NCBI RefSeq assembly: GCF_003334785.1
Contig: NZ_QOWV01000073.1
Length of the DNA: 800 nt
Direction: 5' to 3' (one strand)
From: Escherichia coli
GTDB taxonomy: Bacteria; Pseudomonadota; Gammaproteobacteria; Enterobacterales; Enterobacteriaceae
The notes under the pieces are model-generated. The model had not been told where the DNA came from, ran no database searches, and saw only the letters and a program-made list of their open reading frames with translations. Every line of letters begins with the position of its first letter. The stretch's first letter is position 1. Made by a program: the position numbers and the translations under genes. Below are positions 1 to 800 of this stretch, piece by piece.

Positions 1-800
1 CTGCTCGGTGCAAAGGTCCTTCCCGGTGAAACCGACATCGCCCTGCCCGGCCCGCTGCCGTTCATCCTCTCCCGCACCTACAGCAGTTACCGGACAAAAA
101 CGCCCGCGCCGGTGGGGAGCCTCGGCCCCGGCTGGAAAATGCCTGCGGATATCCGCTTACAGCTGCGCGATAACACACTGATACTCAGTGATAACGGCGG
201 CAGAAGCCTGTATTTTGAGCACCTGTTTCCCGGTGAGGACGGTTACAGCCGCAGCGAGTCACTGTGGCTGGTGCGCGGCGGCGTGGCGAAACTGGATGAA
301 GGTCACCGGCTGGCCGCACTCTGGCAGGCGCTGCCGGAAGAACTCCGCTTAAGTCCGCATCGTTATCTGGCGACAAACAGTCCGCAGGGGCCGTGGTGGC
401 TGCTCGGTTGGTGTGAGCGGGTGCCGGAAGCGGATGAGGTGCTGCCTGCGCCGCTGCCGCCGTACCGGGTACTGACCGGGCTGGTGGACCGCTTCGGGCG
501 CACACAGACGTTCCACCGCGAAGCCGCCGGTGAATTCAGCGGCGAAATCACCGGCGTGACGGATGGTGCCTGGCGTCACTTCCGGCTGGTACTGACCACG
601 CAGGCGCAGCGGGCAGAAGAAGCCCGGCAGCAGGCCATTTCCGGCGGGACGGAACCGTCCGCTTTTCCTGATACCCTGCCGGGTTACACCGAATATGGCC
701 GGGACAACGGCATCCGTCTGTCTGCCGTGTGGCTGACGCACGACCCGGAATACCCGGAGAATTTACCTGCCGCGCCGCTGGTGCGCTATGGCTGGACGCC
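1..800 (+). CDS. Rhs-family polymorphic toxin core protein (YD-repeat protein), internal fragment of the N-terminal conserved region; partial at both ends
   Basis: Seen in sequence: frame +1 is open for all 266 codons (1..798, plus 2 nt), checked codon by codon; codons are GC3-rich (ctg, ccg, ggc, cgc dominate). Translation: LLGAKVLPGETDIALPGPLPFILSRTYSSYRTKTPAPVGSLGPGWKMPADIRLQLRDNTLILSDNGGRSLYFEHLFPGEDGYSRSESLWLVRGGVAKLDEGHRLAALWQALPEELRLSPHRYLATNSPQGPWWLLGWCERVPEADEVLPAPLPPYRVLTGLVDRFGRTQTFHREAAGEFSGEITGVTDGAWRHFRLVLTTQAQRAEEARQQAISGGTEPSAFPDTLPGYTEYGRDNGIRLSAVWLTHDPEYPENLPAAPLVRYGWT. Established knowledge, recalled from memory and not searched: blocks such as GETDIALPGPLPFILSRTYSSY, GPGW, RSESLWLVRGG, LATNS.QGPWW.LGW, VLPAPLPPYRVLTG, GEITGVTDGA, FRLVLTTQAQRAEEAR, AFPDTLPG, GIRLSAVWL.HDP.YPE.LPAAPLVRY match the N-terminal region of E. 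coli-type Rhs core proteins (RhsA/B/C-like). The ATG at 139..141 is an internal Met codon, not a start; the true start and stop are outside the window. Confidence 0.9.
   Translation, partial: MLGAKVLPGETDIALPGPLPFILSRTYSSYRTKTPAPVGSLGPGWKMPADIRLQLRDNTLILSDNGGRSLYFEHLFPGEDGYSRSESLWLVRGGVAKLDEGHRLAALWQALPEELRLSPHRYLATNSPQGPWWLLGWCERVPEADEVLPAPLPPYRVLTGLVDRFGRTQTFHREAAGEFSGEITGVTDGAWRHFRLVLTTQAQRAEEARQQAISGGTEPSAFPDTLPGYTEYGRDNGIRLSAVWLTHDPEYPENLPAAPLVRYGWT

What the first reader, a model, noticed from the sequence alone, without database searches (positions are those of the whole stretch)
1..800. High-GC, GC3-skewed composition consistent with a horizontally acquired rhs core
By eye the window is markedly GC-rich (about 60-65%, not computed exactly), with codons ending mostly in G/C. 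Rhs cores in Enterobacteriaceae are known to be compositionally atypical, with higher GC than their roughly 50% GC host chromosomes, which is evidence of foreign origin and of the recombination-prone nature of these elements.
Basis: partly seen in the sequence, partly recalled or inferred. Interest (0 to 1): 0.3.

Follow-up and report, generated by a model that had tools for sequence, protein, structure and literature searches.

The report
GC-rich core of E. coli rhsA/rhsB
The window is part of the well-known GC-rich conserved core of the E. coli K-12 rhsA/rhsB toxin genes; its high GC is real and far above the host's, but this has been textbook knowledge since the 1990s, and the gene has been inherited vertically with its neighbours for a long time, so it is not a recent import.

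Summary
Observation confirmed. The window has 64.9% GC, and only frame +1 is open (GC1/2/3 = 69/52/73%). It is 100% identical to codons 52-318 of both rhsA and rhsB of E. coli K-12 (host about 51% GC). No 800-nt window in 91 kb of non-rhs K-12 DNA exceeds 60.1% GC.

- "GC3-skewed" overstates the pattern. About 57% of the window's excess GC comes from amino-acid content (Arg, Gly, Pro, Thr, Trp rich) and about 43% from synonymous choice. CAI is ordinary (0.395 vs 0.41 ± 0.07 for neighbouring genes).
- The core is not a recent arrival. E. albertii carries a syntenic rhsC whose third-position divergence from E. coli (0.157) equals that of the flanking kdpA (0.158).
- Polarised substitutions show no more GC-to-AT decay in the core than in the flanking kdp genes (1.76 vs 1.62, p = 0.76).
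- High GC is not forced by the fold. A homolog in a 30%-GC Clostridia genome has 30% GC, while enterobacterial cores stay at 57-62% in hosts whose flanking DNA is about 42-56% GC.
- GC says nothing about recombination. The substrate for that is the 1,811-bp exact rhsA/rhsB repeat containing the window.

Verdict: a known feature and an old compositional legacy. Low interest.

The parts
1..800 (+). Internal part of the rhs core ORF (frame +1, no stop). It is codons 52-318 of RhsA/RhsB, gene nt 154-953, and maps to NC_000913.3 3762336-3763135 (rhsA) or 3619345-3620144 (rhsB).
   Evidence: Frame analysis; 100% identity to rhsA and rhsB, 99.6% to rhsC, 76.6% to rhsD; reference coordinates; NF041261 RHS_core profile positions 52-325, E 4e-162.
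1..216 (+). DUF6531 (PF20148) domain, the conserved N-terminal module of Rhs proteins that precedes the YD-repeat shell. It starts 6 codons upstream of the window.
   Evidence: Pfam hit at window aa 3-72, E 1.1e-14; RhsA aa 46-123, E 4.2e-18, when upstream residues are included.
217..800 (+). Core segment between DUF6531 and the first recognisable RHS/YD repeats. It has no Pfam hit of its own but is conserved across clade I Rhs proteins, and it is the GC-richest part of the rhsA core.
   Evidence: Many invariant columns over RhsA aa 124-318 in the clade I alignment; the first weak RHS_repeat hits start at RhsA aa 318; the best-scoring stretch of the Tse5 (8cp6) match starts at RhsA aa 286; 300-nt bins along rhsA.
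1..800 (.). Part of an 1,811-bp stretch that is exactly identical between rhsA and rhsB (gene nt 82-1892). The two copies are in direct orientation, 142,991 bp apart in K-12. This is the actual substrate for homologous recombination.
   Evidence: longest exact run, mismatch positions, distance; both genes on the + strand of NC_000913.3.

Best explanation
The window is an internal piece of the conserved core of a clade I rhs gene of E. coli K-12 and is identical in rhsA and rhsB. The core encodes the N-terminal DUF6531 module and the start of the YD-repeat shell of a polymorphic toxin. By homology to solved Rhs proteins, that shell encloses a variable C-terminal toxin released after the PxxxxDPxGL motif. 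The 65% GC is genuine and is the long-known compositional signature of rhs cores: a GC-rich core followed by an AT-rich tip and immunity gene. The most likely cause is an old compositional legacy. The enterobacterial rhs core lineage has 57-62% GC in all the enterobacterial hosts sampled here. It has sat at fixed chromosomal positions in Escherichia since before the E. coli / E. albertii split and has been inherited vertically since then. The high GC persists for two reasons. Roughly half of it is fixed by the conserved protein sequence, which is rich in Arg, Gly, Pro, Thr, Tyr and Trp and poor in Lys, Ile, Met, Phe and Val. The synonymous half changes no faster than in ordinary host genes. 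Shown: identity, composition, the decomposition, synteny and equal divergence, and the lack of excess GC-to-AT decay. Inferred: that the ultimate origin was a higher-GC lineage, and the toxin-shell mechanism, which rests on homology only.
For: Identity. Composition against the host. Core/tip contrast in all five K-12 rhs genes (core GC 0.613-0.633, tip 0.365-0.413, break right after PxxxxDPxGL); yibA GC 0.337. Decomposition: the window's protein recoded with neighbouring-gene codon usage would have GC 0.599, against 0.648 observed and 0.533 for the flanks; for the whole core the figures are 0.568 and 0.616. CAI is 0.395 for the window, 0.391 for the core and 0.409 +/- 0.074 for flank genes. 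Vertical residency: E. albertii L009 aligns as one 6.3-kb block across kdpA-ybfA-rhsC; third-position divergence is 0.158 in kdpA and 0.157 in the core; the E4742 rhs lies next to nikR, like K-12 rhsB. No excess decay: close-outgroup triplet 50:38 and 44:32; polymorphisms in 7 strains give a third-position ratio of 1.76 in the core and 1.62 in kdpEDCBA, Fisher p = 0.76; parsimony bias alone gives about 1.25-1.3. Other hosts: Xenorhabdus core 0.566 vs 0.42 downstream, Serratia 0.567 vs 0.46-0.53, E. albertii 0.60-0.61 vs 0.52, Lachnospiraceae MAG 0.443 vs 0.335, Clostridia MAG 0.300 vs 0.30. Solved relatives Tse5 (8cp6, E 7e-128) and P. protegens RhsA (7q97, E 3e-83). Literature: G+C-rich core and A+T-rich extension; clade I predates E. 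coli; the family is 'ancient' (PMC2935791).
Against: No donor lineage was identified, so 'foreign origin' remains an inference from composition. The codon-position GCs of the core (0.646/0.480/0.721) fit what I recall of the Lawrence-Ochman regressions for a native gene of a roughly 62% GC genome. That means there is no visible amelioration, which fits either a slow clock or active maintenance. The polymorphism data hint that the core's implied equilibrium GC3 (0.61, CI 0.52-0.68) is above that of the flank (0.505, CI 0.45-0.56). Under flank per-site rates the expected GC-to-AT:AT-to-GC ratio is 2.70, but 1.76 is observed (p = 0.018). This would favour maintenance over passive legacy. The host comparison rests on only 8 loci, with local flanks used as a proxy for host GC. 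The evolutionary tests used one locus (rhsC) and 7 strains.
Confidence: 0.72

Rival explanations
1. Recent horizontal acquisition: the rhs core entered E. coli recently from a donor of about 62% GC and has not had time to drift toward host composition. This is the plain reading of the first-stage note and of the classical 1990s view.
For: GC 0.616-0.633 in all K-12 cores against about 0.51-0.52 in host DNA. Codon-position GCs fit a native gene of a roughly 62% GC genome (with regression coefficients from my memory of Lawrence & Ochman 1997). Only 3,886 of 5,426 complete E. coli genomes carry a copy detectable by megablast. ISAs1/H-repeat transposase genes are annotated downstream of several rhs loci.
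Against: The rhsC position is conserved with its kdp-ybfA flank in E. albertii, and core divergence equals flank divergence (third positions 0.157 vs 0.158). The rhsB position next to nikR is conserved in Escherichia sp. E4742. CAI is typical of host genes. Jackson et al. place three clade I loci in the ancestor of E. coli and E. albertii.
Confidence: 0.05
2. Protein-driven composition: the high GC is simply a consequence of the amino-acid composition that the YD-repeat shell requires, and says nothing about origin.
For: GC2 is 0.523 in the window and 0.48 in the core, against 0.41 in flank genes. Recoding with host codon usage still gives GC 0.599 for the window and 0.568 for the core. So 57% and 42% of the excess respectively is amino-acid driven.
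Against: The synonymous component is real: GC3 is 0.72-0.73 against 0.58 expected for the same protein with host codon usage. A homologous YD-repeat protein in a 30%-GC Clostridia MAG has GC 0.300, GC2 0.367 and GC3 0.19 (L015), so the fold tolerates low GC.
Confidence: 0.1
3. Active maintenance: the GC-richness of the multi-copy cores is held up inside Escherichia, for example by GC-biased gene conversion among the near-identical paralogs or by selection on the mRNA or DNA, and is not a fading relic.
For: Per-site rates in the core (GC-to-AT 0.101, AT-to-GC 0.157) differ from the flank (0.132, 0.134). The implied equilibrium GC3 is 0.61 vs 0.505, and the observed ratio is 1.76 vs 2.70 expected under flank rates, p = 0.018. 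Concerted evolution is evident, with rhsA/B/C 97-99% identical and an exact run of 1,811 bp. GC3 stays at 0.70-0.77 across cores that differ at up to 44% of third positions.
Against: The significance is marginal, comes from one locus and 7 strains, and the confidence intervals overlap. 'Polymorphisms' in rhsC may be older variants imported from paralogs by ordinary, unbiased conversion, and such variants are expected to be less GC-to-AT biased. For fixed differences, the triplet ratio of about 1.5 matches what host-like fixation rates predict for a GC3 of 0.72 (my calculation). Whether GC-biased conversion operates in E. coli at all is debated (own knowledge).
Confidence: 0.13

Closest known systems
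E. coli K-12 rhsA / rhsB (clade I, RhsA-B-C-F subfamily) core
   Same: The window is 100% identical over all 800 nt to both genes. The composition matches that described for Rhs cores, with a G+C-rich core of about 1,200 aa followed by an A+T-rich extension (PMC2935791).
   Different: Nothing differs; the window is this sequence. It cannot be assigned to rhsA rather than rhsB.
T6SS-associated Rhs effectors with solved structures (P. aeruginosa Tse5, 8cp6; P. protegens RhsA, 7q97; Salmonella bongori Rhs, 8qjb-d; Photorhabdus Tre23/Rhs1, 7pq5)
   Same: Full-length RhsA matches them at E 7e-128 to 6e-37 over the YD-repeat shell and the C-terminal core. The PxxxxDPxGL core end is present.
   Different: The best-scoring matched stretches start at RhsA aa 286 or later, so most of the window (aa 52-318) is N-terminal to the part best conserved with the solved proteins. 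The PAAR motif in K-12 RhsA is only a weak partial hit (E 0.17). From my own knowledge, K-12 has no T6SS, so delivery is unclear.
Classical compositionally atypical genomic islands (horizontally acquired DNA recognised by GC and codon usage)
   Same: GC lies about 3 sd above host windows. There is an abrupt switch to AT-rich DNA (0.32-0.41) at the tip and immunity genes, and transposase remnants lie nearby.
   Different: CAI is not atypical. The chromosomal position is conserved across Escherichia species, with divergence equal to that of the flanks. There is no excess amelioration signal.

Membership tests
Rhs element core protein (NCBIfam NF041261; clade I rhs of Jackson et al.) | Sequence match to the RHS_core profile / known rhs genes | tested here: met
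   E 4e-162 over profile positions 52-325. The 541.7 bits are below the full-length cut-off of 2000 only because the window is a 266-aa fragment. 100% nt identity to annotated rhsA/rhsB.
Rhs element core protein (NCBIfam NF041261; clade I rhs of Jackson et al.) | Core of about 1,240 aa ending in PxxxxDPxGL, followed by a variable C-terminal tip | tested here: met
   The motif is at aa 1238-1247 in RhsA/B/C and 1249-1258 in RhsD, and the tips are 393-507 nt. This lies outside the window but in the same ORF.
Rhs element core protein (NCBIfam NF041261; clade I rhs of Jackson et al.) | G+C-rich core followed by an A+T-rich tip and downstream genes | tested here: met
   Core GC 0.613-0.633, tip 0.365-0.413; yibA 0.337, yibG 0.323.
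Rhs element core protein (NCBIfam NF041261; clade I rhs of Jackson et al.) | YD/RHS repeats forming a shell, homologous to solved Rhs cocoons | tested here: met
   PDB matches Tse5 8cp6 (E 7e-128) and RhsA 7q97 (E 3e-83). Homologs carry Pfam RHS_repeat, TEN_YD-shell and RHS domains. Within the window itself only DUF6531 is detected.
Rhs element core protein (NCBIfam NF041261; clade I rhs of Jackson et al.) | PAAR/VgrG-dependent T6SS delivery and a cognate immunity protein | tested here: inconclusive
   The PAAR motif hit is weak and partial (E 0.17). No vgrG is annotated next to rhsA/B/C/D in K-12. Toxicity and immunity cannot be tested with these tools.
Recently horizontally acquired island | Base composition atypical for the host | tested here: met
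   0.649 against host windows of 0.513 +/- 0.046, maximum 0.601.
Recently horizontally acquired island | Codon adaptation atypical for the host | tested here: not met
   CAI 0.395 (window) and 0.391 (core) against 0.409 +/- 0.074 for 30 neighbouring genes. The reference set was 26 ribosomal-protein genes plus tufA and fusA.
Recently horizontally acquired island | Absent from the same position in sister species, or divergence discordant with the flanks | tested here: not met
   Syntenic in E. albertii (rhsC locus) and in Escherichia sp. E4742 (rhsB locus). Third-position divergence is 0.157 in the core and 0.158 in kdpA.
Recently horizontally acquired island | Ongoing amelioration (an excess of GC-to-AT changes relative to host genes) | tested here: inconclusive
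   Third-position ratio 1.76 in the core vs 1.62 in the flank, p = 0.76. The triplet gives 1.3-1.8. Parsimony bias alone gives about 1.25-1.3. The apparent 3-5:1 obtained with a distant outgroup is mostly artefact.

The most novel reading that the evidence does not exclude
The GC-richness of the Escherichia clade I rhs cores is not a passive relic of an old transfer. It is actively maintained, for example by GC-biased gene conversion among the near-identical paralogous cores. That would explain why the core shows no amelioration at codon positions 1 and 3 despite residency predating the E. coli / E. albertii split, and why its implied equilibrium GC3 (0.61) exceeds that of the adjacent kdp genes (0.505).
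Probability: 0.13. Interest if true: 0.45.

Novelty: already known. Interest (0 to 1): 0.1.

Why it matters
It matters little as a discovery. The GC-rich rhs core and AT-rich tip of E. coli K-12 were described by Hill and colleagues in the 1990s and are summarised in Jackson et al. 2009 (PMC2935791). The useful result is a caution about method. Atypical GC alone would flag this gene as recently foreign, yet synteny, equal divergence from the flanks, ordinary CAI and the absence of excess GC-to-AT decay all show that it is a long-term, vertically inherited resident. About half of its GC excess is locked into the protein sequence. If the weak hint of an elevated equilibrium GC3 held up, rhs cores would be a convenient natural system for testing GC-biased gene conversion between bacterial paralogs.

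Tried and rejected
1. Polarised substitution test with distant outgroups (rhsD and E. albertii L007, about 40-44% third-position divergence). It gave GC-to-AT:AT-to-GC ratios of 42:15 and 64:15, which looked like strong amelioration. I rejected it because a simulation under stationarity at GC3 0.72 gives 2.1-2.4:1 from parsimony bias alone, and a close outgroup gives only 1.3-1.5:1.

That was enough for a qualitative comparison of core and flank GC but not for a regression on host GC.

3. The search for homologous proteins returned only clade I relatives (at least 67% identity) among the 120 listed hits, so it did not provide diverse hosts.

4. Wang, Zhao & Hill 1998 (PMC107404), the primary source for 'diverged prior to acquisition by E. 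coli', is not in the held library. Its claim is cited only through its title as listed in PMC2935791.

I scanned the N-terminal 371 aa instead.

6. ORFs on the other strand and in the other frames are by-products of high GC. They have no support, and each overlaps the conserved frame +1 ORF.

Full report
**What is there.** The 800-nt window has 64.9% GC, and 200-nt sub-windows range from 62% to 69%. Only frame +1 is open; the other five frames contain 4-11 stops. In frame +1, GC at codon positions 1/2/3 is 0.692/0.523/0.729. The other ORFs listed mechanically overlap this frame and are the usual by-product of high GC.

The translated window matches the NCBIfam equivalog model RHS_core (NF041261) at E 4e-162 over profile positions 52-325. 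It contains a Pfam DUF6531 domain at its start.

Megablast finds the window in 3,886 of 5,426 complete E. coli genomes, with a median of 3 copies per genome that has any. It is 100% identical to annotated rhsA and rhsB. In E. coli K-12 it is codons 52-318 (gene nt 154-953) of both rhsA and rhsB. It is 99.6% identical to rhsC and 76.6% to rhsD, and it is missing from the truncated rhsE.

It lies inside a 1,811-bp stretch that is exactly identical between rhsA and rhsB. The two genes are on the same strand, 142,991 bp apart. The window therefore cannot be assigned to one of the two.

**Checking the observation.** The host is not GC-rich.
- Thirty genes around rhsA have GC 0.524 ± 0.037 and GC3 0.570 ± 0.057.
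- 90.9 kb of non-rhs K-12 DNA pools to 51.05% GC.
- Among 835 overlapping 800-nt windows of that DNA, the mean is 0.513, the sd 0.046 and the maximum 0.601. None reaches 0.649.

The high GC belongs to the whole core. In all five K-12 rhs genes the core has GC 0.613-0.633 and GC3 0.715-0.782. Composition then drops to GC 0.365-0.413 (GC3 0.18-0.31) immediately after the PxxxxDPxGL motif that ends the core. The downstream yibA and yibG have GC 0.337 and 0.323. This is the classical picture of a G+C-rich core and an A+T-rich core extension, attributed to Hill and co-workers in PMC2935791.

GC3 (0.729) barely exceeds GC1 (0.692), and GC2 (0.523) is far above the flank value of 0.41.

I recoded the window's protein with the codon usage of the 30 neighbouring genes. 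That gives an expected GC of 0.599, against 0.648 observed and 0.533 for the flank genes. So about 57% of the window's excess is due to amino-acid content and about 43% to synonymous choice. For the whole core the split is 42% and 58%. Relative to flank genes, the core is enriched in Arg, Thr, Tyr, Gly, Asp and Pro and depleted in Ala, Ile, Val, Phe, Lys and Met; the window itself is especially rich in Pro, Gly, Arg and Trp.

The codon adaptation index was computed against 26 ribosomal-protein genes plus tufA and fusA taken from K-12. It is 0.395 for the window and 0.391 for the core, which is indistinguishable from the neighbours at 0.409 ± 0.074. The AT-rich tip scores 0.219.

**Is the composition evidence of foreign origin?** I tested this in four ways.

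1. *Residency.* A scan of one genome per species returned an E. albertii contig (L009). It aligns with the K-12 kdpA-kdpF-ybfA-rhsC region as one 6.3-kb block at 92.1% identity. Third-position divergence between the two species is 0.158 in kdpA and 0.157 in the rhs core. The homolog in Escherichia sp. E4742 lies directly downstream of nikABCDE-nikR, as rhsB does in K-12. The cores have therefore been inherited with their flanks since before these species split, which rules out recent acquisition. This agrees with Jackson et al., who place three clade I loci in the common ancestor with E. albertii and call the family ancient.

2. *Amelioration (drift of a foreign gene's GC toward the host's).* A first polarised test used rhsD-type outgroups and gave GC→AT:AT→GC ratios of 42:15 and 64:15. 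The outgroup differs at 40-44% of third positions and is itself GC-rich. A simulation under stationarity at GC3 0.72 shows that parsimony alone produces 2.1-2.4:1 in that design. I therefore discard that result.

   With a close triplet (E. coli and E4742, with E. albertii as outgroup) the ratios are 50:38 and 44:32, neither significantly different from 1:1.

   As a like-for-like control I sampled seven E. coli strains across kdpEDCBA-ybfA-rhsC and polarised their polymorphisms with E. albertii. At third positions the flank gives 204:126 (1.62) and the core gives 90:51 (1.76), Fisher p = 0.76. Parsimony bias in this design is about 1.25-1.3. So the core shows only the ordinary E. coli excess of GC→AT changes and no additional decay.

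   If the flank's per-site rates acted on the GC-richer core, the expected ratio would be 2.70, but 1.76 is observed (p = 0.018). The implied equilibrium GC3 is 0.61 (CI 0.52-0.68) for the core and 0.505 (CI 0.45-0.56) for the flank. This is a weak hint that the high GC is partly maintained. It comes from one locus and seven strains, and variants imported from paralogs by ordinary conversion could produce it.

3. *Is high GC intrinsic to the fold?* No. A homolog in a Clostridia MAG has core GC 0.300 (GC2 0.367, GC3 0.19), the same as its flank. A Lachnospiraceae homolog has 0.443 against 0.335 upstream.

4. *Other hosts.* Enterobacterial cores stay high in every host sampled:

| Host | Core GC | Flank GC |
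|---|---|---|
| Xenorhabdus ehlersii | 0.566 | 0.42 (downstream) |
| Serratia silvae | 0.567 | 0.46-0.53 |
| Pseudocitrobacter faecalis (fragment) | 0.59 | 0.555 |
| E. albertii | 0.60-0.61 | 0.52 |

Jackson et al. quote 67.7% for the core of a Serratia marcescens rhs against 46.4% for its tip.

Taken together, the enterobacterial rhs core lineage carries a GC-rich signature that is older than its residence in Escherichia. This is compatible with an ancient origin in, or exchange with, GC-richer genomes. The composition of this window is not evidence of a recent event, and no donor was identified.

**Recombination.** GC content says nothing about recombination-proneness. What matters is the long, near-identical direct repeat. 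rhsA and rhsB cores are 98.9% identical with an exact run of 1,811 bp, and rhsC is 97% identical to both. The name "rearrangement hot spot" comes from a laboratory selection for a duplication between rhsA and rhsB (PMC2935791 Background). Jackson et al. state that, at the time of their 2009 study, comparisons of completed genomes had yielded no published report of an rhs-mediated chromosomal rearrangement. I did not survey rearrangements myself.

**What it does.** By homology, RhsA is a polymorphic toxin. Full-length RhsA matches the solved T6SS Rhs effectors Tse5 (8cp6, E 7e-128) and P. protegens RhsA (7q97, E 3e-83), among others. In those proteins the YD-repeat shell encloses the C-terminal toxin (established knowledge of the family, e.g. 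PMC8636562 and PMC10684867 as listed).

The window encodes DUF6531 and the segment leading into the first YD repeats. The first weak RHS_repeat hits start at aa 318.

The N-terminal 'PAAR' sequence just upstream of the window gives only a weak partial PAAR_motif hit (E 0.17). No vgrG is annotated beside the K-12 loci. How, or whether, K-12 delivers these proteins is not addressed here.

**Verdict.** The feature is already known. The inference of foreign origin holds only as an old legacy. The "GC3-skewed" label and the link to recombination are overstated. Interest is low.

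Noticed in passing
window 1-800 (= NC_000913.3 3762336-3763135 and 3619345-3620144): The window is exactly identical in rhsA and rhsB and lies inside an 1,811-bp perfect repeat (gene nt 82-1892). Read mapping or locus assignment for this window is therefore inherently ambiguous.
   Followed up: yes
L012 1-463 (NZ_JAHZMO010000170.1, Terrisporobacter petrolearius assembly): A 463-nt contig with coverage 0.79 in a Firmicute assembly encodes the end of an Rhs core that is 91% identical in protein to the E. coli one. This is most likely Escherichia contamination of that assembly and not a real Terrisporobacter gene.
   Followed up: no
L001 19848-19997 (RhsA aa 1-50, just upstream of the window): The N-terminus reads MSGKPAARQGDMTQYGG... 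and contains a literal P-A-A-R. It gives only a weak, partial Pfam PAAR_motif hit (E 0.17, model positions 51-69 of 70), so it may be a remnant or a divergent PAAR-like tip adaptor.
   Followed up: partly
L007 1228-5001 (E. albertii NBRC 107761): E. albertii carries a second rhs core that is 77.7% identical to rhsD and about 73% identical to rhsA/B/C. It appears to be a third subfamily and has the highest GC3 seen here (0.771). ISAs1/H-repeat-like sequence lies downstream.
   Followed up: partly
L014 1-8827 (Xenorhabdus ehlersii, upstream of the rhs ORF): The 8.8 kb upstream of this rhs ORF also has 56% GC, whereas DNA more than 3 kb downstream has 42% GC. The GC-rich block therefore extends well beyond the core, possibly covering vgrG or another rhs. 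The genes were not examined.
   Followed up: no
L020 1-2056 and 10585-14760 (E. coli strain 7CC): In this strain rhsC is annotated as a pseudogene with an internal stop. seqA-pgm directly abuts kdpE, so the segment that holds speF in the other six strains is absent.
   Followed up: no
hits H48-H59 (kdpA-ybfA query covered only to nt 2343-2395): In many E. coli genomes the match to the kdp-ybfA flank stops about 190-240 bp before the rhsC start, and the record has only one matching place. This suggests that the rhsC position is empty or differently occupied in those lineages. It fits the 1,540 genomes with no megablast match to the window.
   Followed up: no
L001 24874-25830 and 26337-26555; L003 7221-8654: Downstream of rhsA and rhsC lie annotated orphan fragments of 'RHS repeat-associated core domain' with their own tips (yibJ, ybfO and others). 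These are the displaced tips of Jackson's model. The E. albertii core end matches them at 94%.
   Followed up: partly
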